Origin: Patescibacteria group bacterium
GTDB lineage: Bacteria; Patescibacteriota; Patescibacteriia; 2-01-FULL-39-33
Assembly: GCA_041649575.1 (NCBI GenBank)
Contig: JBAZMW010000003.1
Location: 58,102-122,101, forward strand
DNA length: 64,000 nt
Direction of reading: 5' to 3'
The translations under genes and the position numbers were made by a program. Of this stretch, positions 7,530 through 48,422 are shown piece after piece. Positions within the stretch are counted from its first letter, which is position 1. Every line of letters starts with the position of its first letter. Under the pieces are notes generated by a model. It saw only the letters and a program-made list of their open reading frames with translations. It was not told where the DNA came from and did not search any database.

Positions 7530-8781
7530 ATTGATTAAAAGTTAAAAGTTTATTTCGGTAGTATTCATATTGACACCTGCGTGCAGAAAGCTCTGCAGGC
7601 AAACCGATTGATATATCGTTCAAAAGTGCGTCAAACTTATCTAAAATTTCCACGATGCGATTTTGTTCCTCAATCGGCGGGGTTGGGATTTTGAATTTTG
7701 TGAATTCCTCTTTTGTAATTGTTTTTATCGTGCTTCCACGAGCCGTTTCTTTTTCAACAGAAAATTTTCTTTCAAGCTGATATGCGAAATACTTCTTATT
7801 GATATTTACCTTAAACCTCTCAAAAATTGCAAGGGTGCGATCAACATAACTGTCATATTGAGTGATAGCGACTCGACCGATACTTCCCTGCAAAGTTACT
7901 ATAACTGTTCCAGCAGGCACAAAAACACTTTTGGGTTGAGCTAATCTTGAAATTTTTTGTTTTGTATTTTCAACAAGTTGCATATTTTTACCAACATCTG
8001 CGACTTGAACAAATGGCATTGCGCCTTCTCCGCCATACCATCTACTTTCACCATAAGGCTGTGGAAAAGAACCGCGACGATAATCTGCTATTTCACCCAA
8101 CGTTTTCCATTGCACCTCATTGCCTTCAAATCCTAAAAGCTGATTACGATAATACCCATATTGCATCTCTCTCGCCTCCAGCTCCGCCTCCAGCTCCGCC
8201 TCCAGCTCCGTAAATCTATTAAGAATTTTAGCAATTTCTTTTTGTATTTCAAGTGGCGGAAGAGGAATTTTAAACTTTTTAAATCCACTCATATCTACAG
8301 AAGAAAAACTTGACGTTGTTGTATTATTTCGACACCACTCATCCAATAAGTAACAGTAATAGTAGACAAATCGCATGTCGAATTTATCTGCATATTCTGG
8401 CTTTAGGACAAGCGAATTAAACCTCTGATTTGCAAGATGTGGAACTGTAATTAGTGCGTGTTCACCAATAGTAGCAGACGTCGTGATAATAATAGAATTT
8501 GCGGGAAATAGTCTACCGCCTTTCACAGCAATTTCAGGAATGTGCTGAACTGAATCATCTAGTATGTGCCCATTCTCTCTAATATCTTCCATGCGGAACC
8601 AAGGAATGTTGCCACCCGCCCAATATTCTGGTTTTGCCTTTGATGGTGTGTAGCCGTTTTTAATATCAAAAATTTCTACTAAGTCCCTAAACTCCACTCC
8701 GTTCGGGCATAACTTGGCAATTAGCTGTTCAATTTTATTTATAGGTTTAGTCATGCTATTTTTTTCTTTCAATATCGGCAA
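7519..8781 (-). CDS. hsdS: type I restriction-modification specificity subunit (HsdS)
   Basis: two target-recognition-domain halves with duplicated conserved regions (LEAREMQYGYYRNQLLGF / LSARRCQYEYYRNKLLTF); central ELEAELEAELEA repeat. Confidence 0.85.
   Translation of the reverse strand: MPILKEKNSMTKPINKIEQLIAKLCPNGVEFRDLVEIFDIKNGYTPSKAKPEYWAGGNIPWFRMEDIRENGHILDDSVQHIPEIAVKGGRLFPANSIIITTSATIGEHALITVPHLANQRFNSLVLKPEYADKFDMRFVYYYCYLLDEWCRNNTTTSSFSSVDMSGFKKFKIPLPPLEIQKEIAKILNRFTELEAELEAELEAREMQYGYYRNQLLGFEGNEVQWKTLGEIADYRRGSFPQPYGESRWYGGEGAMPFVQVADVGKNMQLVENTKQKISRLAQPKSVFVPAGTVIVTLQGSIGRVAITQYDSYVDRTLAIFERFKVNINKKYFAYQLERKFSVEKETARGSTIKTITKEEFTKFKIPTPPIEEQNRIVEILDKFDALLNDISIGLPAELSARRCQYEYYRNKLLTFNQYVS
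8164..8199 (-). repeat. 3 x 12-bp tandem repeat (gcctccagctcc) encoding (ELEA)3 in the HsdS central conserved region
   Basis: three perfect tandem copies seen directly in the sequence. Confidence 0.9.
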
Positions 8782-10345
8782 CTATTTCATCAATAGAGGC
8801 ACGGAGCTCATTCTGTCTTGCGACTATTTTGGTAATCTTTTTATTAAGTTCCACAATGTCCACTACTTCGCGAGTATCTTCTCCTACAACATAGCCTGAT
8901 ACAGCAATATTATAATCATTCTCTGCAATGACTTTATTATCAATGAGTTTTGCAAAATACTTCGTATCTCTACGAGCGCTGAATGCTTCTAAAATCTTTA
9001 AACGATTTGTCTCGCTTAATTTATTTTTATTGCCACCATGAACAAACTCGGCAGAGGCATCTATAAAAAGTGTTTTATTATCTTTCTTGCTCTTTTTAAG
9101 CACGATGATGCAAGTGGCAATAGATGTACCGAAAAAAAGATTGGGCGGTAATTGTATAACAGCATCAACATAATTATTATCTACAAGATATTTTCTAATC
9201 TTCTGTTCTGCACCACTACGATAAAGAACACCAGGAAATTCAACAATCGCCGCAGTTCCATTCGTCGATAACCATGAAAGCATGTGCATAGTGAAGGCAA
9301 GATCAGCATAACTCTTTGGCGCCAATACTCCTGCCGGAGAAAAGCGCGGATCATTTATTAGGATAGGGTTTGCGTCGCCATCCCAGTGAATTGAATACGG
9401 TGGATTAGAAACAATAGCATCAAATGGCTCATCATCCCAATGCTTCGGGTCGACGAGAGTATCACCGTGTGCAATATCAAAATGATTATAATTAATATCA
9501 TGCAGGAACATGTTAATGCGACAAAGGTTGTAGATAGTAAGGTTGATTTCTTGCCCAAAAAACCCTTGCCTAACATTTTCTTTCCCTAAAACCTTAACAA
9601 ATTTAAGAAGCAAAGATCCAGAACCGCAAGCAGGATCGTAAACCTTATTAACTTCCTTTTTGCCAACGGTTGTAATTTCAGCGAGAAGCTCACTGACTTC
9701 CTGTGGTGTAAAAAATTCACCACCTGATTTTCCTGCATTTGCGGCATACATAGTCATCAAAAATTCATATGCGTCACCGAAGGCATCTATAGTGTTATCG
9801 GAGTAATTTCCGAGCTTAAGATCACCGATTGATTCAAAAAGTTTTGTGAGTTTATGGTTTCTTTTTTCTACCGTGTTTCCAAGTTTATTGGAGTTTACAT
9901 CAAGATCATCAAACAAACCCTTAATGTCATCCTCACTGTTTGCGCCTTTCGCAGAATTTTCAATATTACGAAAAACGGCAGTAAGAGTTTCATTAAGGTT
10001 AGCGTCATTTCGAGCATTTTTTCTAACATTTATAAAAAGCTCACTTGGTAAGATGTAAAAACCTTTTTCTTTGACTGTATCAGCTCGACCGAATTCGGCT
10101 TCTTTATTGGAAAGTGTAGCGTAGTCAAAATCCTTATTACCAGCACGGCGTTCATCAGCATTGATATAGTTGGTAAGGTTTTCGCTAATAAAGCGATAAA
10201 AAAGTATCCCAAGCACATACTGCTTGAAATCCCAGCCATCAACACTTCCACGTAAGTCATTTGCAATCTGCCAAATAGCACGGTGCAATTCTGAACGCTC
10301 CTGTTCTTTAGTTGTGTTCAAATTTTTATCTTTGATGTTAGCCAT
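8756..10345 (-). CDS. hsdM: type I R-M N6-adenine DNA methyltransferase (HsdM)
   Basis: motif I DPACGSGSLL and motif IV VSNPPYS; HsdM N-terminal domain; overlaps hsdS start. Confidence 0.9.
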   Translation of the reverse strand: MANIKDKNLNTTKEQERSELHRAIWQIANDLRGSVDGWDFKQYVLGILFYRFISENLTNYINADERRAGNKDFDYATLSNKEAEFGRADTVKEKGFYILPSELFINVRKNARNDANLNETLTAVFRNIENSAKGANSEDDIKGLFDDLDVNSNKLGNTVEKRNHKLTKLFESIGDLKLGNYSDNTIDAFGDAYEFLMTMYAANAGKSGGEFFTPQEVSELLAEITTVGKKEVNKVYDPACGSGSLLLKFVKVLGKENVRQGFFGQEINLTIYNLCRINMFLHDINYNHFDIAHGDTLVDPKHWDDEPFDAIVSNPPYSIHWDGDANPILINDPRFSPAGVLAPKSYADLAFTMHMLSWLSTNGTAAIVEFPGVLYRSGAEQKIRKYLVDNNYVDAVIQLPPNLFFGTSIATCIIVLKKSKKDNKTLFIDASAEFVHGGNKNKLSETNRLKILEAFSARRDTKYFAKLIDNKVIAENDYNIAVSGYVVGEDTREVVDIVELNKKITKIVARQNELRASIDEIVADIERKK

Positions 10346-11286: not shown

Positions 11287-11315
11287 TTGACAAAATAAAA
11301 ATTAAATTATATAAT
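11287..11315 (+). promoter_or_regulatory. perfect consensus sigma70-type promoter TTGACA-N17-TATAAT
   Basis: ttgaca (11287-11292), 17-nt spacer, tataat (11310-11315); followed by a leader hairpin caggcttcaaaaagcctg and RBS GGGGAGG before the ATG at 11404. Confidence 0.6.
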
Positions 11316-11403
11316 AATATATGCTCTTTATAATTTGGATTTTGATAGTCTAATCCGAGGACAATAATTCAGGCTTCAAAAAGCCTGGGGGAGGATAAGT
11401 TAG

Positions 11404-13008
11404 ATGCAAGCAATACTGGAAGCGATCGAAACCGGCCTAGTAAGGGGCTGTGGAATATCCCTGACCGAGGCGATGAGTTCGCCACGATTCGTAAAGCTGC
11501 TGGCGAGGCAAAAGACCCTCTTTGAGCGTTACCCTAAGGACACTCACCGAGGAATCGCCCTAAGAGCCGGACATCTGGTCATGGGCCAGTTACTCAACAC
11601 CATGCCGGAATCGAAAGCTTTAGCCCAAGCTCGACGGATCAAAACACCGAAGTTCGGCTGCGGTATTGAGCTGCGCGCGCTGATCCAATTCTTTGGCGAA
11701 GCGCTAATTGTCGAAGCTGGCAAGTGCCTGCCAGACGAAGTGCTTGAATTGGCCAAGGAGTGGAGAGCGGCCACGGCGGAGAGACAGATTGAAATAGTCC
11801 GAGAACTATTCTTCATCTTTCGGTCGAAGAAACAAGGCGATGACCAAGAGATCATGACCCTCGCTCACGCTGAGCAAGATCTTATCCGTAAGGCCATGGA
11901 AAAGTGGAATCGAGGGTCTGACGCGCGAGATGTTTTACCAAGACTCTATGGCAAGTGGGACAGTAATTGTCCGGCTAACTGTCAGGGTAAGACGCAATTG
12001 CTAGTCGCCTTCGCGCACCTCGCCGGAACCAAGGCAATGGTTGTCAACGCTCTAAGCGACGGAGTACATGAGCTGTGGCGGTTAAGGGGTGAGTTGGCCG
12101 ACGCCATCTCTCAAGACATCAGACGGCGCGGCCTAGGCGGAGTCAGCTCGGAATTTGATGACAGCCTGGCTGGTCATCATTTCGCCGAGATTTTCAGGGA
12201 AAAGATTCGGGACTTCCATGTCGGTACGGCTTTGAGGCTAGGCGACGGGCGCTGGATCCTAATCGACCCGCACGCTCTTGCCTGGGGAGTTTTCTCTCCG
12301 CGCTGGCAGATGAACGAAACTCACCGACTGCTCCGAAAATACGCTGAAGTTTTGCCCGGACTGACGTTAACCCGCGATGATGGCGGAGAGGTCACGGACA
12401 AAATCAAGGCTAGGGCCGAAGTGTCTTACGACTTGATCGAGCGGTCGCGAAAGCTCGAGATTTTGCTTCGCGAACAGGTTCACTCCATGTCAGACTTCAT
12501 CGACATCGTTAAGGACTCAGAAGATTTCGATTTGCTGATGCGCCTCAACGCCGAACATGAAAGAACGACTTTTGTCCCATGGACCGATCCGAAGATAAGG
12601 TTTCTCGGCGTCGCTTCTGTGGTAGCCGGTGGAATGGACAAGCTCCATGACTTTCGGGCCATGATAGACCCAAAGTACCTAGAGCAACAAATAAAGTTGT
12701 GGCTATCATTCTACCACTGCGTGGCGGCCAATCACTTAGCGAACCAACTGGGTGACAATGGCGAGTTGGTCCATCTGGTTTGCGAGTTCAACGCCAGCCC
12801 GGAATACTATTTGGCACTGTCGGCGACCAACAGCATCATCGTGCGAGAAGATGAAGAGTCGGAATCGTTCTTCATTGATTACGGTTTCGACCAGCTCACT
12901 CTTTATAACACGATGATCCGGCGAAAGGAAGCGGCGGTCGCGGCGGCGGAGGTCGTCAAAACTCTGCCGTTTGTGCATGAGAATATGCGCACCAGATTTG
13001 GAATCTAA
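11404..13008 (+). CDS. hypothetical protein encoded in a GC-rich island (possible transglutaminase-like Cys-His-Asp core; speculative)
   Basis: 534-aa ORF in a region of about 56% GC with a strong RBS; NCQGKTQLLVAFAHLAG, HHFAEIF and GRWILIDPH loosely resemble the C/H/D motifs of transglutaminase-like cysteine peptidases. Confidence 0.55.
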   Translation: MQAILEAIETGLVRGCGISLTEAMSSPRFVKLLARQKTLFERYPKDTHRGIALRAGHLVMGQLLNTMPESKALAQARRIKTPKFGCGIELRALIQFFGEALIVEAGKCLPDEVLELAKEWRAATAERQIEIVRELFFIFRSKKQGDDQEIMTLAHAEQDLIRKAMEKWNRGSDARDVLPRLYGKWDSNCPANCQGKTQLLVAFAHLAGTKAMVVNALSDGVHELWRLRGELADAISQDIRRRGLGGVSSEFDDSLAGHHFAEIFREKIRDFHVGTALRLGDGRWILIDPHALAWGVFSPRWQMNETHRLLRKYAEVLPGLTLTRDDGGEVTDKIKARAEVSYDLIERSRKLEILLREQVHSMSDFIDIVKDSEDFDLLMRLNAEHERTTFVPWTDPKIRFLGVASVVAGGMDKLHDFRAMIDPKYLEQQIKLWLSFYHCVAANHLANQLGDNGELVHLVCEFNASPEYYLALSATNSIIVREDEESESFFIDYGFDQLTLYNTMIRRKEAAVAAAEVVKTLPFVHENMRTRFGI

Positions 13009-13038
13009 CGGCGGAAAAACAACGAGAGACGAGAGGAG

Positions 13039-13341
13039 GTGCAGACAGATATGATAGACACAAGGAGCTTTTCGCGAGAAGCCAAGGAATTGATGCGCCT
13101 GTGCCCTGTAAGTGAACACAGCGGGGAACCCACTGGTACGGACATCTCCACGGTAATTGCCGAACACCCCGAGCTCGTTTCAGGACTCTCCCAATATGTT
13201 TCCTGGGTCCGGGAGGTGGGCATGGCCATTGCGGAAACAACGACAACTCCGGCGATTGGCCACCCGGTTGCCAAGACTGTCCGGAAGGTACAGGCCCACG
13301 CCAGCGACGGCGACAAACCGAAATCCGAACCCCGCACCTAG
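13039..13341 (+). CDS. hypothetical small protein (100 aa), second gene of the GC-rich island
   Basis: RBS GAGGAGG 8 nt upstream of the ATG; same strand and composition as the upstream gene; a terminator follows. Confidence 0.35.
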   Translation: MQTDMIDTRSFSREAKELMRLCPVSEHSGEPTGTDISTVIAEHPELVSGLSQYVSWVREVGMAIAETTTTPAIGHPVAKTVRKVQAHASDGDKPKSEPRT

Positions 13342-13363
13342 TTGCGGGCGTACACAACACACA

Positions 13364-13406
13364 AAGCCCTGTCCGGCAGTAATGGACAGGGCTTCTTAAT
13401 TTTTAG
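13364..13406 (+). terminator. rho-independent terminator (aagccctgtcc ... ggacagggctt + T-run)
   Basis: 11-bp perfect stem with 10-nt loop followed by cttaattttta. Confidence 0.65.
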
Positions 13407-16603: not shown

Positions 16604-17623
16604 TTAAAAAACCCGTTCTAACTTATATAGCCAATAATAATTTAATAATCTCTCACGCACCTTATGACCATTGCCGTGGCTTAACAGCCCTAAATATGAT
16701 TGCAAAGTCGCGTTAGTCGGACTAATCTTAATTCTATTTATGGACTTTCTCTTGGTGGTATTCCGCAATACCCGATGGTCAGTAAAATGAACCCAACCAA
16801 GATAATCAACTCCCGAGGCCATTGTTCTTATGGATATTTTATTGGGATGAAGAGTGAGCTTTAATTCCTTAGACAAAAATTGACCTATTTCTGGTAATAT
16901 TTTTTCTAGATACTCTTTGTCGTCATTGAGAACCATAAAATCATCGGCATAGCGCAAGTAATATTTCACTTTTAATTTATGTTTTACCCATTGATCAAAA
17001 TCATTCATGTAGACATTGGCCAGTAGTTGCGAAGTGAGATTGCCAAGTGGCAGCCCGATATCCTGGCCGTAAATCTTACTATCATAACTCTCAATTACCT
17101 CGTCGAGCAGACTCATAATATCTCGGTCGGGAATATAGCGGGATAAGCTATCCATAAGGATTTTATGATCGATACTGTCAAAAAATTTCCTGATGTCACA
17201 TTTCAAAACCCAGCAGGTGCGAGAGTGATTTTTGCTTGTTTTGTAGGCCAAAGCACGGAATCTGTTCATCGCTTTATGCATTCCCTTATCATTGCGGCAA
17301 GAGAAAGAATCGGCGATAAAAGTCCTGTCAAAAAAGGGATAAAGAATTCGATAGATAGTATGATGAATCAAGCGGTCGCGGACGCTGGCTTTGTGGATAT
17401 GCCGACGCTTAGGATCGGTTATATAGAAATCAACATAGCCGCCATGACAGTATGTTCGATTGGCCAAATCCTCGTTTAATGATAAAATATTGTCGAGCAG
17501 GTTACGAGAAAATATTTGGACGTCCAGCTTCATTTTTTTGCCAACGATAAATTCTCGCCACGCGGAAAATAAATTTTCTAAATCAATAATCGAATTATAG
17601 TTATGGCTCAGTTGGATTTTCAT
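16604..17623 (-). CDS. DGR-type reverse transcriptase
   Basis: RT motifs including YADD (RYADDFMVL) and the DGR-specific GLPLGNLTSQLLANVY ([IV]GxxxSQ); N-terminal LENLFSAW. The start is chosen at the internal ATG (MKIQLSH...) downstream of the G10 tract; the track ORF extends to 17683. Confidence 0.85.
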   Translation of the reverse strand: MKIQLSHNYNSIIDLENLFSAWREFIVGKKMKLDVQIFSRNLLDNILSLNEDLANRTYCHGGYVDFYITDPKRRHIHKASVRDRLIHHTIYRILYPFFDRTFIADSFSCRNDKGMHKAMNRFRALAYKTSKNHSRTCWVLKCDIRKFFDSIDHKILMDSLSRYIPDRDIMSLLDEVIESYDSKIYGQDIGLPLGNLTSQLLANVYMNDFDQWVKHKLKVKYYLRYADDFMVLNDDKEYLEKILPEIGQFLSKELKLTLHPNKISIRTMASGVDYLGWVHFTDHRVLRNTTKRKSINRIKISPTNATLQSYLGLLSHGNGHKVRERLLNYYWLYKLERVF

Positions 17624-17639
17624 AATAATTCCTTTAAGT

Positions 17640-17649
17640 CCCCCCCCCC
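17640..17649. repeat. homopolymeric C10/G10 tract in the RT 5-prime region / avd-RT divergent intergenic region
   Basis: 10 consecutive C on the plus strand; lies about 17-26 nt upstream of the proposed RT start codon. Confidence 0.9.
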
Positions 17650-17674
17650 AACGGGTTTTGATAATTTTCCAATT

Positions 17675-17995
17675 TTGACGCAATTAAAGGAAGGGTATAA
17701 ATTGTGGCACGGCTTCTTAAATCGCCTGCCTCGCACTACGCGCTATACTCTGGGGACAAAAATCGATAATATCTTTACGGATTTAATTGCCACCGCCTTA
17801 ACCGCCAAGTTTGCCAGACAAGATGAAAAAATTATCAGGCTAAAACAAATCAGCGAGGGTCTTGATCATCTCAAATACTTTCTGACGATACTGTGGGAAA
17901 TAAAAGGGATAGACAGTGGCAAACTCTCCGCTTTGGGCAGTCGTCTGGCTGCCGTCGGAAAAATGGTCGGCGGATTACTCAAGTCAATTTCATAA
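17675..17995 (+). CDS. Avd-like accessory variability determinant (four-helix-bundle / 23S-IVS protein family)
   Basis: LPRTTRYTLGTKIDN and LGSRLAAVGKMVGGLLKSI match the FPKEEKYxLGxQIRR ... LxxLIKSL pattern of the four-helix-bundle family used as DGR Avd. The start is uncertain: TTG at 17675 or 17702 (the track ORF starts at 17603 and would overlap RT). The gene is on the strand opposite to RT, TR and target. Confidence 0.55.
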   Translation: MTQLKEGYKLWHGFLNRLPRTTRYTLGTKIDNIFTDLIATALTAKFARQDEKIIRLKQISEGLDHLKYFLTILWEIKGIDSGKLSALGSRLAAVGKMVGGLLKSIS

Positions 17996-18040
17996 AAAGG
18001 AAAAGAAGGTCTCAAAAACCTTCTTTTCCTTTTTATTTTC
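17996..18040. terminator. perfect 15-bp stem hairpin (aaaggaaaagaaggt / accttcttttccttt, 7-nt loop) + T-run
   Basis: starts 1 nt after the avd stop codon and lies 16 nt 3-prime of the TR on the other strand. Confidence 0.7.
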
Positions 18041-18047
18041 ACATCAT

Positions 18048-18155
18048 CAGGAGCACGAAGCCGATATTGTCGTTGCCATTCTCGTCCCAGTTGTTGCAGT
18101 TGAGCCCGTTGTCGTCGAAGTTGCCAGCAATGAGACGATTGCCGTCGTTCAAGGT
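18048..18155 (-). repeat. DGR template repeat (TR), 108 bp
   Basis: aligns to 18606-18713 with 21 mismatches; 20 of them are adenines on the minus (sense) strand of this copy. Read in the VR frame it encodes TLNDGNRLIAGNFDDNGLNCNNWDENGNDNIGFVL with 10 AAC/AAT codons. Confidence 0.85.
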
Positions 18156-18158
18156 CAA

Positions 18159-18557
18159 TCAATAGTTGTGAATATTGTCTTCCAAAACACCGCCCATTGA
18201 GTTCTCTCTGGGCTGAACCGTATTTGGGGTCATGAGCCCACCAACAATAAACACGGGGTGTGAAAAATGTCCTTGGGATAATTTCCTTGCTCTGGCGCGA
18301 TCCTTAGACAACGCCATTCGGAAGAATAAATTACCTTGTTCTGCGGGCTGGCGTCCGTGGAGACCAGCTAAGTTTAACTTCGCAGTAATGGTAATTATAT
18401 CACAATCGAAAATTTTTATGAAGATAGATATCTGCATTAGCTCCTCGGCTCGAAAATTTAAAAGATTACTTTTACATTTCTCTCGCTCTACGTCGCTTAT
18501 AAAAAAGAGAGGCCTCGGTGCGATGACCAAGGTCTCAAGTGTCCAAGTGTCCAACAA
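18159..18557 (-). CDS. hypothetical ORF between VR and TR (coding status doubtful)
   Basis: 132-aa ORF at the position where avd usually sits, but no four-helix-bundle-like sequence; may be non-coding TR-upstream sequence. Confidence 0.2.
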   Translation of the reverse strand: MLDTWTLETLVIAPRPLFFISDVEREKCKSNLLNFRAEELMQISIFIKIFDCDIITITAKLNLAGLHGRQPAEQGNLFFRMALSKDRARARKLSQGHFSHPVFIVGGLMTPNTVQPRENSMGGVLEDNIHNY

Positions 18558-18581
18558 TCCGAGGCGAGAGCGCCAAGGATC

Positions 18582-19310
18582 CTACTTACCGAGCTTCTCC
18601 ACCCCCAGGAGCACGAAGCCGATCATGCCGTCGCCACCCTCGCCCCAGTCGCGGCAGCGGAGCCCGACGCCGCCGAAGCCGCCAGCAATGAGACGACTGC
18701 CGTCGCGCAAGGTGTCAGACGCCATGTAGAGACGATTCAGCGGTACACGTTCGCCCGTACGCTTGAAATGCGCGAGGATAAGAGCGAACTGAAGCTGAAT
18801 CGAGCCGAATGTTGTGGCGTGATTACCGGGCAATTCGTAGCGCTGTTTGAGTTCGGCGCGGTGCTTTTCCATCGCTTTGATGTTCTTACCCGTGCTGTTT
18901 TCTGCCAGGCGAGGAATCCAGAACACCAAGCAATCGTCGGTGGGGTTGTCGTTGAAATTCCAGCTCTGGAGGTAGCCGAGATTCTCGTAGCAAGGACCGA
19001 CAATCGGGGCGTGCTTCTTCAACGTGAAGCCCTGCTTGATAAGCCATACAACAGGCCCCGTGTAGCCCATCAGAGCCGCCAGTTTACGCCAGGGGGCGAG
19101 ACGGTCTGTGAACTGTGGGAACTGCTCCAGCATCTTACTATCGGATAAGGGAATGGCGAAAGTATTCGCGATTTCTTCTTGCACGAGTGCGGCGAGGAAC
19201 TCTTTCACCTTTCCTGGCTTATCGGCAAAAACCGACATCTCTTCATCGCTGAGGCCATTAAGTGTGGCCAATACCGATACTGCACTTGCCTTACGGTCTG
19301 TCGTCTTCAT
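18582..19310 (-). CDS. DGR target (variable) protein, C-terminal VR; likely C-type-lectin / FGE-like fold
   Basis: 242 aa, about 58% GC; VR occupies the last about 43 codons before the stop (...GFVLLGVEKLGK*); the TR carries AAC codons at the variable sites. Confidence 0.8.
   Translation of the reverse strand: MKTTDRKASAVSVLATLNGLSDEEMSVFADKPGKVKEFLAALVQEEIANTFAIPLSDSKMLEQFPQFTDRLAPWRKLAALMGYTGPVVWLIKQGFTLKKHAPIVGPCYENLGYLQSWNFNDNPTDDCLVFWIPRLAENSTGKNIKAMEKHRAELKQRYELPGNHATTFGSIQLQFALILAHFKRTGERVPLNRLYMASDTLRDGSRLIAGGFGGVGLRCRDWGEGGDGMIGFVLLGVEKLGK
18606..18713 (-). repeat. DGR variable repeat (VR), 108 bp, at the 3-prime end of the target gene
   Basis: TR homolog in which TR adenines are replaced by G/C/T; encodes TLRDGSRLIAGGFGGVGLRCRDWGEGGDGMIGFVLL; followed by GC-rich GGGGTGGAGAAGCTCGG (IMH-like). 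Confidence 0.85.
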
Positions 19311-19512
19311 AACTTGCCTTTCTGCCTACCTGAGGCAGTATTCCCAACCACCATGGCCGAGAAAAAGATGGGGCATTCAGTGGTCCCAACTTTCTTTCTG
19401 CATAATTTACCCTGTAGGAATAGGCACTCAAATTCCACAGGGTTTATCTTAAATTAAACAAAAAGAAAGCTGGAACCTAAAACTTATCAATATATTAATG
19501 AACTAATAATAT

Positions 19513-19541
19513 ATTATACGGCATATGACAAAATTTGTCAA
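19513..19541 (-). promoter_or_regulatory. perfect consensus TTGACA-N17-TATAAT promoter upstream of the DGR target gene
   Basis: on the minus strand: TTGACA (19541-19536), 17-nt spacer, TATAAT (19518-19513); about 200-nt structured leader to the ATG at 19310. Confidence 0.55.
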
Positions 19542-29856: not shown

Positions 29857-30086
29857 AGACTAAAAAAGAAAATTTGTTAAAATTTGTTAAATTAATTATA
29901 ACAAAAATCGATTTTTTGTTCAATGAAAAAAAGCCACAAATTACCAATGAATCGCGACTTTAAAAATTCTTACCCCAAAAACATAAAAATTCTTAGTTAT
30001 TATGACTTTAAATTTGTTTAATATTTTAATTTTTAATTTTTTAATTTGTTTTTTATTTAAATTTAGCCAAAATAAATAACTAACCA

Positions 30087-30115
30087 TTGACACTAATTTT
30101 CAAAAATGATAGAAT
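30087..30115 (+). promoter_or_regulatory. near-consensus promoter TTGACA-N17-TAGAAT at the boundary of GC-rich island A
   Basis: ttgaca (30087-30092), 17-nt spacer, tagaat (30110-30115); the GC-rich segment starts about 6 nt downstream. Confidence 0.5.
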
Positions 30116-30520
30116 TTTTTATTGAGCGGCACAGTGCTGACTCAAAACCTCGAACATTACAAACAAGAGCGGAGGACAAATCCGTGTATATAAGGAACAT
30201 AGTTCCCGGACAGTTTGTTTAGTTCTTCTCCCAAGAAGACCCGCACGATGCGCGTAATGGCAAGAGACATCGCGTTGACAGCGTTGACGTGAGAGAGAGC
30301 ACTGTGACGCTGGACGTCTCCGAAGATGACGGCTACACGACTGATTTTGAGATAGTGGATTCTGTTAGTTGCTGGAGCCAGCCGGTAGAATTGTGCAGTT
30401 TCTAGTGCAGGAAGAGAAGGCTTGTGAGCGGCGCCGATCCTGGACGCGTCATAGCTTTCGTCCCCGAACCGCCAGCCACGGCCCCGTCCGTACCGGCCAA
30501 ACCATAGAAAGGGCGCGACC

Positions 30521-30860
30521 AATGAGATCAAGAAACGCGGTAGCACTGAAAGCGGGCCAGTTCTTGCTTTTTTCCCGAAGAATCGCTTCCGGGAAAAAGG
30601 TCATGGTAATGGGGCGTGTCAAAGAGATAAGCCCCAAAGGCGACCGTAAGCTGGACTACATCGACCTGGAACTGATGGACGAAGAAAGCCAGATCTGGCC
30701 GGACCACCGTGATTGCCATGACGGCGGCAGAGCAGCGACGCTCTCCCGGCTCCAAGAGCTCTACGGACCAGCGAGAATCACTACGCCCGAAGAAGCCGAG
30801 AGCTTCCAGATGAAAGTGCTGGCGAATCGCGTCGTTGCTATTGTCCGCTTCTTCTGGTGA
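30521..30860 (+). CDS. hypothetical ORF in GC-rich island A (coding status uncertain)
   Basis: 113-aa ORF from the first in-frame ATG; plus-strand direction fits the flanking promoter and terminator; overlapping ORFs of similar length on the minus strand are expected in 60% GC DNA. Confidence 0.25.
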
Positions 30861-30933
30861 CAACGCTGGAGGCGACGCCACAACCGTTGATGCTCTGCCA
30901 TTGCCGCCAGGAGGAAACATGCACATAACACAC

Positions 30934-30975
30934 CCGAGGTTGCGCACGCGCGCGACCCCGGGGTGATTTTTTTAT
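30934..30975 (+). terminator. rho-independent terminator (ggttgcgcacgcgcgcgacc ... ccggggtgattttttta)
   Basis: GC-rich stem plus T7 run; nearly identical to the terminator at 34601-34645. Confidence 0.65.
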
Positions 30976-32076: not shown

Positions 32077-32847
32077 TTAAATAGTAGTTATAATCTCTCC
32101 TCCCCTTTCTGTCACCGCGATCGTATGCTCAAAATGCGCCGAGAGCGAATTGTCTCTAGTGGCCACCGTCCAGCCGTCGTCCAAAGTTTCTACCGGCCAG
32201 TCGCCAAAATTAACCATTGGCTCTAGAGCCAAAGTCATACCAACCGCCAGCTTGATGTCGGCAAACCTCTTGTCCACATAATTGGGAATTTGCGGATCTT
32301 CGTGGGGAGAAAAACCGACTCCATGGCCGCACAATTGCCGCACAACACTAAAACCATTTTTTTCAACGTAATCTTGAATGGCGCGGGAAATGTCCGTCAA
32401 TTTATTGCCAGCTTTGGCCTGCCTAATGCCTTTAGACAAAGATTCTTCCGTGACGGAAATAAGTTTTCGGATTTGCCGGCCAACACTACCAACGGCGACT
32501 GTCTTGGCCATGTCGGTAAAAAGCCCGCGATACTCCAGGCCGCAATCAATACCAACGATGTCGCCGCTTTTAATAATCCTATTGGGAACCGGCAGGCCAT
32601 GCACCACTTCGTTATTTAACGAAAGGCAAAGAGCCGAGGGATAGGCATGCTCGGCCCAAGAAGCCCGATAACCCTTAAAACTTGGCTTGCCGCCGGCTTT
32701 TTTTATTAATTCTTCGGCATAAACACTCAATTCTTCGGTGCCAACGCCGGGTTTTATTTTTTTTATTACCAAAGCCAAAACCTGGGCGAGAATTTTCCCG
32801 CCCTGACGCATGGTGGCTATTTGTTGTTTATTTTTTAATTTAACCAT
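32077..32847 (-). CDS. map: methionine aminopeptidase type I
   Basis: pita-bread fold motifs (HGLPVPN, DIVGIDCG, CGHGVGFSPHEDP, HFEHTIAVT). Confidence 0.9.
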   Translation of the reverse strand: MVKLKNKQQIATMRQGGKILAQVLALVIKKIKPGVGTEELSVYAEELIKKAGGKPSFKGYRASWAEHAYPSALCLSLNNEVVHGLPVPNRIIKSGDIVGIDCGLEYRGLFTDMAKTVAVGSVGRQIRKLISVTEESLSKGIRQAKAGNKLTDISRAIQDYVEKNGFSVVRQLCGHGVGFSPHEDPQIPNYVDKRFADIKLAVGMTLALEPMVNFGDWPVETLDDGWTVATRDNSLSAHFEHTIAVTERGGEIITTI

Positions 32848-32932
32848 GACTTAATATTAACAAAAAAAGAATAAAATCACAAAAAGATAAACTTATTTTT
32901 GCCTAAATTTAAACAAAAAATAACATTATTTA

Positions 32933-32961
32933 TTGACATTTAATTTTGGATATGATATAAT
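32933..32961 (+). promoter_or_regulatory. perfect consensus TTGACA-N17-TATAAT promoter of GC-rich island B
   Basis: ttgaca (32933-32938), 17-nt spacer, tataat (32956-32961); RBS AAGGAG then ATG at 33027. Confidence 0.6.
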
Positions 32962-33026
32962 TATATATTGGGTCGGCATCGCGCTGACTCGAGATTTTGG
33001 ACATTTTCAACCAAGGAGAAAGAGAA

Positions 33027-33380
33027 ATGAAACGATTTTTCAGCTTTTTGGAGCGGCTGTTCGCCGGCCTGAGTGCGATAGCTCTACTGCTCGGCCTGAT
33101 GTTTGTGGCCGGCATCTGTCTATCGCTGCCCTGGTACGGCTGGATTGCCAGCTTCCTGGCCGGCATCTTCACCGCAGGGATAAGAGTGATCCGCTGGCCG
33201 ATCAAAATCGCCTTGCTGGTAATCTGGGGGCCGATGATCATGGCTTTCGGCTACTACATCGTCTTCCCGATGGTCGGGCCGGTGAGTATCGTGCAGGGAG
33301 CGATCTGCTGGGTGATATTCATCACGGCGTTTGTGATGGCTCGCTGCGCCGCCGGCATCAAGGACATGCCAACGGACTGA
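33027..33380 (+). CDS. hypothetical small integral membrane protein (island B gene 1)
   Basis: AAGGAG RBS 7 nt upstream; about 4 TM helices (FAGLSAIALLLGLMFVAGICLSLPWYGWIASFLAGIF ... ). Confidence 0.5.
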   Translation: MKRFFSFLERLFAGLSAIALLLGLMFVAGICLSLPWYGWIASFLAGIFTAGIRVIRWPIKIALLVIWGPMIMAFGYYIVFPMVGPVSIVQGAICWVIFITAFVMARCAAGIKDMPTD

Positions 33381-33437
33381 AAAGGCCTATGAGCGGTGCC
33401 TTTGAAAACCGCTTAAGACAAAGAAGGAGTTGCAACC

Positions 33438-34055
33438 ATGATAGAACCTGTTGGTGTTATATTGTGCGGTATAGTGATCTTGGTCCTTGGGGTTGGGTGG
33501 AGTCTAATCTCAAGGAAGAGTCTGGAATTCTTCAGTTGCGTGACACTGGTGGTGCTGGCTGTCGGCCTGTACTTGTCAGTGTCCGATCACCAAATCCCCA
33601 AGACGTCATGGGGAGCCACCACGCCGGGCGCGATGATGCCCTACGACCAGAAACAAGCCACCGACGCGTTCGACGCATCGGCGAAGCAGGCACAAGGAGC
33701 TACAGGGTGTAGCGCCGGAGCAGAGCAAAGGACCGCTGTGACCGCACTGACCCGCGACGAAGAGACGGCGCTGGCCAGACAACGGAACGCAGCGGCCGCC
33801 CAAGAAAGCGGTGAAACAACCGCCGACAAGTGGCCGATGAAGGAGCTAGCCATCACTCCGCTGAGCAAGTGGTTTAACCAAAGGGAAAGCAAGGGGGGCT
33901 GGTCTTCCGTAAACTATGGCTCGTACCGGTGGGTGCGAGTGGATGATAGGCTGGGACTGCAGTCCCATACGGTATATGGCTGTGTGATTTCCTTCGTGCC
34001 AGAGCCGCCGGCCACGCCAGCGACAACGGCCGAAACAAAGGAGGACAAGCCATGA
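33438..34055 (+). CDS. hypothetical membrane-anchored protein (island B gene 2)
   Basis: AAGGAG RBS; two N-terminal TM helices then an Ala/Thr/Gln-rich soluble region; stop overlaps the next start (ATGA). Confidence 0.5.
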   Translation: MIEPVGVILCGIVILVLGVGWSLISRKSLEFFSCVTLVVLAVGLYLSVSDHQIPKTSWGATTPGAMMPYDQKQATDAFDASAKQAQGATGCSAGAEQRTAVTALTRDEETALARQRNAAAAQESGETTADKWPMKELAITPLSKWFNQRESKGGWSSVNYGSYRWVRVDDRLGLQSHTVYGCVISFVPEPPATPATTAETKEDKP

Positions 34056-34219
34056 CCACGACATGGTGGCAAGAATTGGGACGATATGAGTACGAGATTG
34101 AAGTCGGAGAGAACGGCGGCCAACACTACACCGGCCGCCATCGCTGTGTTGGCGGACAATTGGCAGATGGCCGGTGGCCGATCTTTGGTGACAAGTCTGG
34201 CGAGACGGTTTACGCCTGA
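34052..34219 (+). CDS. hypothetical 55-aa ORF (island B gene 3), translationally coupled
   Basis: ATGA overlap with the upstream stop; MTTTWWQELGRYEYEIEVGENGGQHYTGRHRCVGGQLADGRWPIFGDKSGETVYA. Confidence 0.25.
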   Translation: MTTTWWQELGRYEYEIEVGENGGQHYTGRHRCVGGQLADGRWPIFGDKSGETVYA

Positions 34220-34232
34220 AAGGAGACGCGCC

Positions 34233-34586
34233 ATGCAATTCGTACTGAAAGTTGATGACGGTGTGAAAGAGCCGCCGACGCTGCGGGATGCCATCCTGGC
34301 GGCTAAGAAGCTGGCCCACTATGACGCCTTGGTGGCTTTCCTGGCCACTCAGAAAATGACCGAGCCAGGAAGAAAGCGACTGGCCGCTAACGCGGTAGTG
34401 GAAGCAATTGGCCACCTCTGGGTGCAGCCGCCAGGCAAGTGGGCCCAACAAGTGCGAAGTTTTGTGGCGGTCGAAGTTGGCGTCAATAGCGCCATAACGC
34501 TTGAAGACTCCCCGTGTCTCGACTTCCCTGTCTTCAACGTGGAGCCAGAGCGGCCGCCCTCGGTTCCGCCCGAACCCGAGTCCTAA
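34233..34586 (+). CDS. hypothetical protein (island B gene 4)
   Basis: AAGGAG RBS 8 nt upstream of the ATG at 34233 (the track ORF begins earlier at 34086 in the same frame); ends 15 nt before the terminator. Confidence 0.4.
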   Translation: MQFVLKVDDGVKEPPTLRDAILAAKKLAHYDALVAFLATQKMTEPGRKRLAANAVVEAIGHLWVQPPGKWAQQVRSFVAVEVGVNSAITLEDSPCLDFPVFNVEPERPPSVPPEPES

Positions 34587-34600
34587 CCGTACATTCGATC

Positions 34601-34645
34601 CCCTGGGGTTGCGCACTTGCGCGACCCCGGGGTAATTTTTTTATA
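34601..34645 (+). terminator. rho-independent terminator (ggggttgcgc-actt-gcgcgacccc + T-run)
   Basis: 10-bp GC stem (one G-U), 4-nt loop, then ggggtaattttttta; near-identical to 30934-30975. Confidence 0.7.
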
Positions 34646-34928
34646 AATAATATTTTTTACTATCTTTCTTTTTCTTTTTTAGAATATTTAATTTTATTAG
34701 TTTTAAAAGTTACTTTAGATAAAAATGACCACTAAAAAATTTAGAAACAAAATCAAGTAATTAGAGCGTTCCGCCTTCCGGGCGGAAATTTATAACTGTT
34801 TGAAAACCCCGCCTGTAAGGCGGGGTTTGAGTTTTATAAATTAGCGATAATTGCGCTAGATTTTGTCTAAATTTTTTAATGGTCAGAGTTTTTGCGCTAC
34901 TTTTTGCGGCCAAAAAGTAGCAATGGGC

Positions 34929-35606
34929 CTATTTCCACCCCACTTTGCTTCTTAAATCCTCCACCATCCGCCTGACCAGCTGCTGAAAAACAGCTTCAAT
35001 ATGCTTCTCGCCGTCGATCTCTATCAGCAGCCCTTTGTCTCGATAAAATTTTATAATACCATCCATCTCTCGATGATAAATTTCCAGCCGGTTCGTCACT
35101 ACCTCTTCTTTGTCGTCATCGCGCTGAAACAGCGGTTCGCCGCAATTATCACAAATTCCCTCTGTTTTTGGCGGTGAATATTTGATGTGCCAGGAATGGC
35201 CATTTTTGCACACCCGGCGACCAGACATTCTCTCGACTATTGTCTCATCGGAAACCTTAACCAAGAAAACATAATCCACATCCACATTCTTGTCTAAGAA
35301 ATCCGCCTGATCCAAAGTCCTCGGACAGCCATCCAGGACATAACCGAATTTACAGTCGTCTTTTTTTATTCTTTCGACAACCAAATGATCAACCACTTCT
35401 GTTGGCACCAACTGTCCCTTTTCGATATAAGCCTTGACCTCGGCGGACAAAGGGTGACTGGAATCATTTTTTATGGACGAAAGGATTTGGCCAGAAGAAA
35501 CATGAGGGATATCAAAAGTTTTGGCCAATAGACCGGCCTGGGTGCCTTTGCCGGAAACTGGCGGACCTAAGACAATGATCTCAAATGGTTTTTCGTTTTG
35601 AAACAT
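34929..35606 (-). CDS. adk: adenylate kinase (zinc-lid type)
   Basis: P-loop GPPVSGKGTQ, NMP-binding region, LID with CKNGHSWH ... CDNCGE. Confidence 0.9.
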   Translation of the reverse strand: MFQNEKPFEIIVLGPPVSGKGTQAGLLAKTFDIPHVSSGQILSSIKNDSSHPLSAEVKAYIEKGQLVPTEVVDHLVVERIKKDDCKFGYVLDGCPRTLDQADFLDKNVDVDYVFLVKVSDETIVERMSGRRVCKNGHSWHIKYSPPKTEGICDNCGEPLFQRDDDKEEVVTNRLEIYHREMDGIIKFYRDKGLLIEIDGEKHIEAVFQQLVRRMVEDLRSKVGWK

Positions 35607-47961: not shown

Positions 47962-48363
47962 CTATTCCACTGGTTCAAAATAATAATGATCTTCTTCCTG
48001 CTTTTTATTTAAACTCTGTAATTCTGACATACGATCATAGACATCAGCTAGAGAAAAGTTCTGATCATTAATAACAACCCCTAAATCGTAATAATCCCTC
48101 AATTTTTCCGAGAAATCTTGTTCTTCAATCGGCAAATGATTGTTATTGGTTTCTTGGCTGTCTTTCCAGAGAGCAATTTCTCGGTTTATCTTATCTAAAA
48201 GTTCGTCCTCTGTCAAGCCAACCACCTCTGATTTACCTAAAATTAGCCGTTCATAATCAAAAATAGTCATTAAAACGTAAGCCGGATCACCATTTTGGTC
48301 TAAAATTATAGCTTTATCCCCAGTTTTTTTTATTAAATTAACGATTTTTTTAAGACCTTCCAT
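47962..48363 (-). CDS. hypothetical protein with Phd/YefM-antitoxin-like N-terminal domain and acidic C-terminal half
   Basis: DKAIILDQNGDPAYVLMTIFDYERLIL resembles the Phd/YefM beta-strand/helix motif; no toxin gene adjacent. Confidence 0.4.
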   Translation of the reverse strand: MEGLKKIVNLIKKTGDKAIILDQNGDPAYVLMTIFDYERLILGKSEVVGLTEDELLDKINREIALWKDSQETNNNHLPIEEQDFSEKLRDYYDLGVVINDQNFSLADVYDRMSELQSLNKKQEEDHYYFEPVE

Positions 48364-48422
48364 TGTTATAAATTATTAAATATTAATAATTTTTTATCTA
48401 AATTTAGATAAATTTTATAAAC

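What the first reader, a model, noticed from the sequence alone, without database searches (positions are those of the whole stretch)
32933..34645. GC-rich island B inserted between map and adk inside the conserved ribosomal-protein supercluster; four small genes with AAGGAG RBSs
secY-adk-map is one of the most conserved adjacencies in bacteria. Here a 1.7-kb, 60% GC segment with a perfect TTGACA-N17-TATAAT promoter lies between adk and map. It encodes a 4-TM small membrane protein, a membrane-anchored Ala/Gln-rich protein, a 55-aa coupled ORF and a 118-aa protein, and ends in a GC terminator. Small membrane proteins in a foreign-looking cassette could be a toxin/immunity or holin-like set, a phage-exclusion unit, or genes taken from a high-GC host by an episymbiont.
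Basis: partly seen in the sequence, partly recalled or inferred. Interest (0 to 1): 0.6.

Follow-up and report, generated by a model that had tools for sequence, protein, structure and literature searches.

The report
Orphan gene cassette between adk and map
A real, self-contained four-gene operon of unknown function sits between adk and map in a tiny Patescibacteria genome. It carries strong expression signals that the host's own genes lack, and it occupies a slot that related genomes fill with other cargo, so it looks like lineage-specific accessory DNA rather than genes stolen from a high-GC host.

Summary
A 1.7-kb segment of 56-58% GC (background 41%) lies antisense between map and adk. 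It has a 12/12 TTGACA-N17-TATAAT promoter, four ORFs each preceded by AAGGAG 7-8 nt before the ATG, and a 14-bp GC hairpin terminator.

- **Synteny:** adk-map is contiguous in three relatives (Ca. Buchananbacteria). Two others carry a different cassette at the same junction, with a homologous promoter region.
- **Homologues:** g1, g2 and g4 have no homologues in the word-indexed search. An exhaustive search of g4 alone found one 116-aa protein, encoded divergently from map in another Patescibacteria-like contig, with a homologous terminator and leader motif. g3 was never searched.
- **Paralogue:** island A in the same window shares the promoter/5'UTR and the terminator.
- **Translation signals:** native genes here and in relatives lack Shine-Dalgarno sequences. 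Cassette genes have them.

I read it as a moron-like accessory operon from a Patescibacteria-internal flexible gene pool, probably acting at the envelope. Capture from a high-GC host, a holin set or a known defence system is not supported. Function remains inferred.

The parts
32854..32882 (-). map's own promoter (TTGTGA-N17-TAATAT). The -10 box ends 6 nt before the map ATG at 32847, which implies a leaderless map mRNA.
   Evidence: The same geometry (-10 ending 6 nt before the ATG) is seen in L003 and L010.
32897..32913 (.). Conserved AT palindrome-like upstream element (CTAAATTTAA core) lying between the divergent map and cassette promoters.
   Evidence: It aligns with TTTATCTAAATTTAG in island A, L003 and L010. 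The composite pattern palindrome + TTGACA + TANAAT occurs only at cassette heads, with 0 expected by chance.
32933..32961 (+). Sigma-70 consensus promoter TTGACA-N17-TATAAT with an extended -10 TG.
32968..32992 (+). 10-bp stem-loop in the 5' leader, a few nt downstream of the -10 box, likely an mRNA stabiliser. It is paralogous to the island A hairpin at 30122-30145.
   Evidence: both fold as leader hairpins. A and B 5' regions are 70.5% identical over 112 nt.
33027..33380 (+). g1: 117-aa basic protein with four hydrophobic helices and only short loops. N-in/C-in topology is inferred from charge distribution.
   Evidence: (GC1/2/3 0.49/0.45/0.79). No homologue.
33383..33415 (+). Conserved leader motif AGGCCTATGAGCGGTGCCTTTGAAAACCGCTTA, just upstream of the g2 SD. 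It can form the AGCGGU/ACCGCU hairpin.
   Evidence: It aligns with the leader of the P0007 gene in L010 (11/11 and 9/9 identical blocks). It has no Rfam match. The fold is not better than shuffles.
33438..34055 (+). g2: 205-aa protein with an N-terminal two-helix membrane hairpin, an Ala/Thr/Gln-rich linker, a Trp/Tyr/Gly-rich C-terminal domain and a Pro/Thr tail.
   Evidence: No homologue.
34052..34219 (+). g3: 55-aa soluble Gly/Glu/Trp-rich protein, translationally coupled to g2 (ATGA overlap).
   Evidence: Called as a gene in the Logan contig. Not annotated by NCBI.
34233..34586 (+). g4: 117-aa acidic, mainly helical protein. It is the conserved core of the slot, with motifs IGHLWVxPxGxWA and PVFNxEPxRPxSVP.
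   Evidence: Homologue P0007: 36% identity, pairwise E 3e-17. AF2 pLDDT 69 with 2 sequences. No fold match.
34601..34645 (+). Intrinsic terminator (14-bp GC stem plus T-run). Its sequence is conserved with island A and with L010.
   Evidence: (D16)
34726..34885 (.). 160-bp element with 38-nt inverted ends enclosing two GC hairpins. It is probably the bidirectional terminator that now ends the secY-adk transcript.
   Evidence: (I4). Only sub-threshold sRNA/terminator-like Rfam hits.
30057..30975 (+). Island A: a paralogous cassette shell between aspS and recO, with the same upstream element, promoter, 5' hairpin and terminator. Its cargo is different and largely non-periodic (possibly decayed).

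Best explanation
Island B is a genuine, autonomous accessory operon of a Ca. Buchananbacteria-type Patescibacterium. It is a 'moron-like' cassette occupying a recurrent slot between adk and map.

Shown:
- It is transcribed antisense to the ribosomal-protein operon from a consensus sigma-70 promoter. That promoter is divergent from a leaderless map promoter, with a conserved AT palindrome between the two.
- The leader carries a stable hairpin a few nt downstream of the -10 box.
- It carries four ORFs with perfect Shine-Dalgarno sites and ends at a sequence-conserved GC terminator.
- The shell (upstream element, promoter, leader motif, terminator) and the last gene (g4) recur at the same map-divergent position in another Patescibacteria-like contig.
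- The promoter module recurs with different cargo in a Buchananbacteria MAG.
- The promoter/5'UTR and terminator recur at a second locus (island A) of the same genome.
- The native genes of this clade have no Shine-Dalgarno sequences, whereas cassette genes do. Cassette GC3 is about 0.66, against 0.44-0.48 for neighbouring genes, in two genomes.

Inferred:
- The cassette belongs to a flexible gene pool internal to Patescibacteria, exchanged or remodelled at a few intergenic slots. It is not DNA captured from a high-GC host.
- Its strong signals make it highly expressed.
- Two of its products are membrane proteins (a compact 4-TM protein and a membrane-anchored protein with an exposed C-terminal domain). 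It therefore most likely acts at the cell envelope, as classical phage morons do (surface modification or exclusion of incoming DNA or phage), with g3 and g4 as cytoplasmic partners.
- The envelope or exclusion function is a low-confidence inference. The anatomy and the origin are the well-supported part.
For: - Signals and genes.
- Coding periodicity.
- Composition.
- Independent assembly.
- Synteny: adk-map is contiguous in L004, L005 and L006. A different cassette with TTGACA-N17-TATAAT and AAGGAG sits at the same junction in L003.
- g4 homologue: P0007 is found only by exhaustive phmmer (E 4.8e-7; BLASTP 3e-17). It is encoded divergently from a map gene (60% identity) on L009 and L010.
- Shell homology: homologous upstream element and promoter, terminator and 33-nt leader motif.
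- GC3 of the P0007 gene is 0.667 against 0.444 for the adjacent map.
- Island A shares the 5' 112 nt (70.5%) and the terminator (92.5%).
- The composite promoter pattern occurs only at cassette heads.
- SD dichotomy: none of the 48 native window genes has an SD match at functional spacing (40 have no 4-nt match at all; the 8 weaker matches were judged by eye to be too far upstream), and none of 28 genes in relatives, against 6 of 6 genes in islands B and C plus the L003 and L010 cassettes.
- Morons are defined as independent transcription units with their own promoter and terminator and deviant GC (PMC3594210).
- Patescibacteria genomic islands are reported to bring 'phylogenetically ambiguous and novel sequences', with most transfers occurring within Patescibacteria (PMC12455944).
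Against: - No function-bearing homology exists for any product, so the envelope or exclusion role rests on topology and analogy only.
- g1-g3 have no homologues, so their reality rests on SD sites, coupling and codon-position GC, not on conservation. g3 was never put through a large-database search.
- Only one g4 homologue is known, and it lies on 1.1-kb contigs.
- The L003 cassette shares the promoter module but no cargo, and it is not GC-enriched.
- The cause of the high GC and GC3 is unexplained.
- No mobility gene or target-site duplication was found.
- It is unknown whether this organism's 16S rRNA keeps an anti-SD. Only 48% of Parcubacteria do (PMC9297842).
Confidence: 0.6

Rival explanations
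1. Recent horizontal capture from a high-GC organism (for example the episymbiont's bacterial host). On this view the GC-rich, SD-led genes keep the donor's composition and translation signals.
For: - GC is 0.577 against 0.411, and GC3 is 0.61-0.79 against about 0.48.
- SD-led genes sit in an SD-less genome.
- The island is absent from three relatives.
Against: - g1, g2 and g4 have no homologue in the word-indexed search of 5.8 billion clusters.
- The single true hit in 1.84 billion representatives, which were searched for g4 only, is an Asn/Ile/Lys-rich protein at the same map-divergent locus of another AT-rich Patescibacteria-like contig.
- The promoter module, leader motif and terminator are homologous to that cassette and to island A, so the unit is native to this lineage's gene pool.
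- Phage and plasmid collections gave no hits.
Confidence: 0.12
2. A native cassette whose GC content was driven up locally. Candidates are GC-biased gene conversion at a recombination hot spot, or selection for stable mRNA in a very highly expressed unit. No foreign origin would be involved.
For: - GC enrichment starts within a few bases of the predicted transcription start and stops at the terminator, in both A and B.
- The P0007 gene has the same GC3 (0.667) in a different AT-rich genome, while keeping AT-type amino-acid usage.
- The slot shows cargo turnover, which implies recombination.
Against: - The L003 cassette is not GC-enriched.
- Ribosomal-protein genes, which are also highly expressed, have GC3 of about 0.46.
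- There is no direct evidence of recombination.
- It does not explain why only cassette genes carry SD sites.
Confidence: 0.15
3. A specific conflict module: a toxin-immunity or abortive-infection pair, or a holin-type lysis cassette left by a prophage.
For: - It encodes small membrane proteins (a 4-TM protein of 117 aa and a membrane-anchored protein) plus small soluble partners in one tightly coupled operon.
- The window carries other defence or variation systems: a Type I R-M system and a DGR.
Against: - There are no PADLOC, Pfam, PHROG or NCBIfam hits.
- There is no endolysin, integrase or other phage gene nearby.
- The related L010 cassette contains g4 alone, so a two-component toxin/antidote logic is not conserved.
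Confidence: 0.1
4. Not genes at all: a GC-rich non-coding transcript or an assembly chimera, in which long ORFs arise by chance because stop codons are rare.
For: - Long ORFs occur in several frames, including a 256-aa antisense ORF.
- g2 and g3 show only weak codon-position contrast.
- Island A has no clear periodicity.
Against: - Four of four ORFs have AAGGAG at 7-8 nt from the ATG, there is an ATGA coupling, and GC3 is well above GC2 in g1 and g4.
- g4 has a protein-level homologue.
- The same contig appears in two assemblies.
- There is no Rfam family.
Confidence: 0.04

Closest known systems
Phage morons (for example HK97 gene 15, lambda bor/lom): independent promoter-gene-terminator units inserted between conserved genes
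   Same: Island B has its own strong promoter and intrinsic terminator. Its GC differs from its neighbours. It is present or absent between otherwise syntenic genomes. Its cargo is small, often membrane, proteins of no known family. It is inserted between two genes of a conserved operon.
   Different: It is not in a phage or prophage, since its flanks are adk and map of the ribosomal-protein cluster. The shell (upstream palindrome, leader motif, terminator sequence) is conserved across genomes and loci, which is not a described moron property. It carries four genes rather than one or two.
Genomic islands or islets of Patescibacteria (Gios et al. 2025, PMC12455944)
   Same: It is compositionally deviant, and its products are novel or phylogenetically ambiguous. 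Exchange appears to be mainly within Patescibacteria.
   Different: It is much smaller (1.7 kb, one operon), it has no mobility genes, and it lies inside the ribosomal-protein supercluster. The SD-led versus SD-less contrast was not found in the passages of that paper consulted here (a keyword look-up).
Integron gene cassettes
   Same: Variable cargo is bounded by a conserved imperfect-palindrome 3' element, and the cargo differs between genomes at the same site.
   Different: Each unit has its own promoter. There is no array and no intI/attI nearby. The 3' palindrome is followed by a T-run and behaves as an ordinary terminator, and it does not show the R''/L''-L'/R' attC layout.

Membership tests
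Phage moron | Independent transcription unit with its own promoter and factor-independent terminator | tested here: met
   12/12 promoter at 32933-32961 and a 14-bp GC hairpin plus T-run at 34601-34645. These are sequence predictions, not expression data.
Phage moron | Nucleotide composition different from the flanking genes | tested here: met
   GC 0.577 against 0.411, and GC3 0.61-0.79 against about 0.48.
Phage moron | Extra DNA relative to otherwise syntenic relatives | tested here: met
   adk-map gaps of 6, 41 and 22 bp in L004-L006, against 2.08 kb here.
Phage moron | Located within a phage or prophage genome | tested here: not met
   The flanks are map and adk/secY. No PHROG hits. No matches in the phage or viral collections.
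Integron gene cassette | Promoterless ORF followed by an attC site, in an array next to intI/attI/Pc | tested here: not met
   It has its own consensus promoter and is a single unit. The neighbours are map and adk. Presence of intI elsewhere in the genome could not be examined.
Holin-endolysin lysis cassette | Small TM holin adjacent to a peptidoglycan hydrolase; holin family match | tested here: not met
   No hydrolase domain and no holin family in Pfam or PHROGs for g1-g4.
Known anti-phage defence systems / toxin-antitoxin | At least one component matching a defence or TA profile | tested here: not met
   PADLOC, Pfam and NCBIfam gave no hits at E<=1 beyond noise. A novel system cannot be excluded.
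Xenolog acquired from a high-GC donor | Detectable homologues in high-GC non-Patescibacteria taxa | tested here: not met
   The only true homologue is in a Patescibacteria-like contig. The other phmmer hits are multi-repeat giant proteins matching a short GxLxVxPxGxW hairpin motif.
DGR target gene (a DGR is present at 16.6-19.5 kb) | A variable repeat matching the template repeat with adenine-specific mismatches | tested here: not met
   Island B shares no similarity with the VR-bearing region. Island D does: 20 of 21 mismatches fall at TR adenines.
Known structured RNA (riboswitch/leader) for the 33383-33415 motif | Match to an Rfam covariance model | tested here: not met
   No hit at E<=10 on the short segment or on L010. 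There are only two examples, so covariation is not testable.

The most novel reading that the evidence does not exclude
SD-less Parcubacteria may keep a separate 'expression shell' for accessory genes. The shell would consist of an operator-like palindrome, a consensus promoter, a 5' hairpin, a conserved leader motif, canonical Shine-Dalgarno sites and a sequence-conserved terminator. It would be copied to a few intergenic slots, and its cargo would be swapped or born de novo.

The accessory gene pool would then be translated by a different initiation mode from the core genome. A more remote version is that the cassette carries signals suited to expression in the bacterial host of the episymbiont.
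Probability: 0.12. Interest if true: 0.75.

Novelty: new variant of a known kind. Interest (0 to 1): 0.45.

Why it matters
Patescibacteria genomes are small and streamlined, and a large share of their genes have unknown function. Here a compact, apparently highly expressed ORFan operon breaks one of the most conserved gene adjacencies in bacteria. It also uses translation signals (perfect Shine-Dalgarno sites) that the organism's own genes lack.

If the shell proves to be a recurrent, portable expression unit, three things would follow:
- It would give a handle for finding the flexible genes that mediate episymbiont-host or phage interactions.
- It would bear on whether the anti-SD is functional in lineages thought to have abandoned SD-led initiation.
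- It would provide natural strong promoter, SD and terminator parts for genetics in these organisms.

If not, it is one more lineage-specific hypothetical operon.

Tried and rejected
**Profile and structure searches**
- Pfam, PHROGs, PADLOC and NCBIfam on g1-g4 and on the ORFs of islands A, C and D gave only noise.
- PDB sequence search of the g4 profile, g2 and the 534-aa ORF gave nothing.

**Homologue and collection searches**
- Word-indexed homologue searches of g1, g2 and g4 returned self only, or nothing.
- The exact terminator pattern in metagenome contigs gave two hits, both chance matches inside high-GC coding DNA. It gave none in viral contigs.
- The leader motif gave no hit in viral contigs.
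- The promoter-plus-palindrome pattern gave 119 hits in viral contigs. None carries cassette proteins, the motif or the terminator, so the pattern is unspecific in AT-rich phage DNA.
- g2, the 534-aa ORF and the g4 profile gave nothing in viral contigs. Phages and plasmids by BLAST gave nothing.
The exact map protein is not on record.

**Leads dropped**
- An apparent g2 hit in L004 crosses stop codons and is spurious.
- The island A 83-aa ORF looked by eye like a truncated g4, but it is not detected by the g4 HMM, so I dropped it.
- Collinear weak blocks between A and B (motif 82% over 22 nt; the g2 end over 13 aa) are suggestive only.
- Rfam finds nothing in the island.
- The other phmmer hits for g4 are repeat-rich giant proteins that share a short hairpin motif. 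I treat them as not homologous.
Full report
**1. What is in the sequence**

The window encodes almost everything on the minus strand. It includes the ribosomal-protein supercluster ending in L15-secY-adk (adk 34929-35606) and, 2.08 kb further on, map (32077-32847), ruvX, recO and aspS.

Between map and adk lies a plus-strand unit. It is the highest-GC 1.7-kb stretch in the 64 kb, at +3.2 sd.

The unit begins with TTGACA-N17-TATAAT (12/12, with a TG extension). This is one of only six sites of at least 11/12 in the window. It ends with a 14-bp hairpin (11 GC pairs) followed by a T-run.

Four ORFs lie inside:
- g1, 33027-33380, 117 aa
- g2, 33438-34055, 205 aa
- g3, 34052-34219, 55 aa, with an ATGA overlap with g2
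- g4, 34233-34586, 117 aa

Each has AAGGAG or AAGGAGG 7-8 nt before its ATG. In the predicted frames GC3 exceeds GC2, clearly for g1 (0.49/0.45/0.79) and g4 (0.70/0.42/0.66), and less so for g2 and g3.

The same DNA was assembled independently in a Logan contig of run SRR8542065 and in a 191.6-kb MAG contig. NCBI annotates that contig as 'Patescibacteria group bacterium' with hypothetical proteins WC518_02770-02780.

**2. Products**

- **g1** has four hydrophobic helices joined by very short loops. Its basic residues lie at the N-terminus and in the second loop, so I infer N-in/C-in topology.
- **g2** has two N-terminal hydrophobic helices around a short basic loop. These are followed by an Ala/Thr/Gln-rich linker, a Trp/Tyr/Gly-rich domain and a Pro/Thr tail, which I infer to be extracytoplasmic.
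- **g3 and g4** have no hydrophobic segment.

No product matches Pfam, PHROGs, PADLOC or NCBIfam, or PDB sequences. The g4 AlphaFold model reaches pLDDT 69 only when its one homologue is included. It is mostly helical and matches nothing in BFVD or the PDB.

**3. Synteny**

A genome scan with adk found four relatives, named Ca. Buchananbacteria or Patescibacteria, with adk 56-72% identical.

In L004, L005 and L006, adk and map are separated by 6, 41 and 22 bp. The island is therefore an insertion into an ancestral adjacency.

In L003 the same junction holds about 1 kb of different content, also antisense. It comprises TTGACA-N17-TATAAT with a TG extension, an AAGGAG-led 72-aa ORF, a 62-aa two-TM ORF and a hairpin terminator. 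That cassette is not GC-enriched.

**4. Homologues**

Word-indexed searches of 5.8 billion clusters found nothing but self for g1, g2 and g4. g3 was not searched against the large protein databases.

An exhaustive phmmer search of g4 against 1.84 billion representatives gave one same-size, single-stretch hit. This is P0007: 116 aa, E 4.8e-7, pairwise BLASTP 3e-17, 36% identity. It shares the motifs IGHLWVxPxGxWA and PVFNxEPxRPSVP. The remaining hits are giant repeat proteins that match a short hairpin motif several times. I regard them as not homologous.

P0007 is encoded on two 1.1-kb metagenome contigs, directly divergent from a map gene that is 60% identical to the window's map. The intergenic region aligns with that of island B: TTTATCTAAATTTAG, then about 25 nt, then ATTGACA-N17-TAAAAT.

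Its terminator, CCCGGGAGTCACGCA...TGCGTGACCCCGGG plus a T-run, aligns with B's. The right arm is 12/13 identical, and one stem pair changes from G-C to A-U.

A 33-nt leader motif just before its SD aligns with the g1-g2 intergenic region of B, in identical blocks of 11 and 9 nt. This motif matches no Rfam family. With two examples, its hairpin cannot be tested for covariation, and its fold is not better than shuffled sequence.

The slot next to map, its shell and g4 are therefore shared between distant members of the clade. The L010 version is g4 alone. B has g1 inserted before the motif, and g2-g3 inserted between the motif and g4.

**5. A paralogous shell in the same genome**

Island A (30057-30975, between aspS and recO, which are adjacent in L004) has the same upstream element. 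It has TTGACA-N17-TAGAAT, a similar 5'-terminal hairpin and a terminator 92.5% identical over 40 nt. The 5' 112 nt are 70.5% identical. Its cargo is unrelated and shows little coding periodicity.

The composite pattern (palindrome core, then TTGACA, then TANAAT) occurs in the window only at A and B, with 0 expected by chance. Among the first ten loci fetched (L001-L010, before the viral scan) it occurs only at the L003 and L009/L010 cassettes, apart from L001 and L002, which are copies of the window's own contig. It is absent from the cassette-free relatives. Island C (11287-13400) has a similar head and two SD-led ORFan genes.

**6. A contrast in translation signals**

None of the 48 native minus-strand genes in the window has an SD at proper spacing; 40 have no 4-nt match at all, and the few 5-6-nt matches lie too far upstream. 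The same holds for 28 genes in the four relatives. Their upstream regions are plain A/T.

A systematic scan finds SD-led genuine gene starts almost only in islands B (4 of 4) and C (2 of 2). The L003 and L010 cassettes also have AAGGAG and GGAGGAG.

Tsurumaki et al. 2022 report that the anti-SD motif is detectable in only 48% of Parcubacteria 16S rRNAs (PMC9297842). The 16S rRNA of this organism is not in the window.

GC3 of the P0007 gene is 0.667 against 0.444 for its neighbouring map. That is the same contrast as in the window, 0.66 against 0.48. The deviant composition and the SD sites are thus properties of the cassette lineage. They are not the mark of a single recent import.

**7. Consequences for the operon**

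In the three genomes that carry a cassette, map has a -10 box ending 6 nt before its ATG. Here that is TTGTGA-N17-TAATAT at 32882-32854. This implies a leaderless map mRNA, and the conserved palindrome sits between the two divergent promoters.

The secY-adk transcript probably ends at the hairpins inside a 160-bp inverted-repeat element at 34726-34885.

**8. Interpretation**

The unit meets three of the four defining features of a phage moron: its own promoter and terminator, deviant composition, and extra DNA relative to relatives (definition from PMC3594210). It fails the fourth, because it is not in a phage. It works like a moron but is not one.

It is not an integron cassette, since it has its own promoter and there is no array. 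It matches no known defence, toxin-antitoxin or lysis family.

The 'high-GC host donor' idea fails its direct test, because there are no such homologues and the only relative is Patescibacteria-like. This fits the report that Patescibacteria genomic islands bring novel, phylogenetically ambiguous sequence and that most exchange is within the group (PMC12455944).

I therefore read island B as a strongly expressed, lineage-specific accessory operon from a Patescibacteria-internal flexible gene pool, sitting in a recurrent slot. The membrane topology of g1 and g2, and the precedent of moron cargo, make an envelope-level role (surface modification or exclusion) the most likely function. That step is inference only.

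The origin of the high GC is unresolved. It could reflect a mobile pool with higher GC, or local GC-biased conversion at a recombination-prone slot.

**9. Verdict**

The 'foreign cassette' reading is partly right, but the suggested donor and functions are unsupported. Novelty is modest: a new variant of the moron or islet theme. Two points are of real interest: a shell conserved across genomes and loci, and SD-led cassettes in an otherwise SD-less genome. Interest is 0.45.

Noticed in passing
window 16604-19541: A complete diversity-generating retroelement. The reverse transcriptase is at 16604-17683(-) (RVT_1, E 1.3e-27) and a bAvd-like protein is at 17603-17995(+). The template repeat is at 18048-18155 and the variable repeat at 18606-18713, which forms the C-terminus of the GC-rich 242-aa ORF 18582-19310(-), called 'island D' here. 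20 of the 21 TR/VR mismatches fall at TR adenines. A 12/12 promoter at 19541-19513(-) lies 200 nt upstream of the target gene.
   Followed up: partly
window, all native genes; L003-L006: The native genes of this organism and of four relatives have no Shine-Dalgarno sequence; their upstream regions are plain A/T. Genes in the GC-rich cassettes (B, C, and the L003 and L010 cassettes) have canonical SDs. This is consistent with the reported loss of the anti-SD in about half of Parcubacteria (PMC9297842). The 16S rRNA is not in the window.
   Followed up: partly
window 32847-32882; L003 ~7700-7737; L010 ~408-445: map has a promoter whose -10 box ends exactly 6 nt before the ATG in all three cassette-bearing genomes. 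This implies a leaderless map mRNA.
   Followed up: partly
window 30057-30975: Island A lies between aspS and recO. It has the same promoter/5'UTR and terminator as island B, but different cargo with little coding periodicity. The only called gene is an 83-aa ORF at 30609-30860. It may be a decayed paralogue of B or a non-coding transcript.
   Followed up: partly
window 11287-13400: Island C is next to tRNA-Thr. It has a 12/12 promoter, a 534-aa ORFan (11404-13008) and a 96-aa ORFan (13051-13341), both SD-led, with GC 0.53-0.58 and its own terminator. Neither ORF matches any of the four family libraries; the 534-aa ORF was also searched against PDB sequences and viral contigs without result.
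   Followed up: partly
window 4455-10345: A Type I restriction-modification operon: hsdR 4455-7529, hsdS 7519-8781 and hsdM 8756-10345. It lies beside island C and the DGR, so 4-19.5 kb is an accessory or defence-rich region.
   Followed up: partly
window 34726-34885: A 160-bp element with 38-nt inverted ends enclosing two GC hairpins, between the island B terminator and the adk stop. No other copy is in the window. It is probably a bidirectional terminator, though a MITE-like origin is not excluded.
   Followed up: partly
window 18039-18557: The template repeat of the DGR lies in a 39-aa frame that continues a 132-aa ORF across an in-frame TGA at 18159-18161. The TR therefore sits in what looks like a broken or readthrough copy of a target-like gene.
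   Followed up: no
window 47962-48420: An AT-rich (GC 0.31) 133-aa ORF with no Pfam match is inserted between fusA and tuf. A perfect CTAAATTTAG palindrome at 48398 lies upstream of it, and this is the same core as the element upstream of the cassette promoters.
   Followed up: no
L003 6780-6990: Several tandem copies of a 22-nt unit (GGGAATGACAAAAGGAGGGCGC) lie between the L003 cassette and adk.
   Followed up: no
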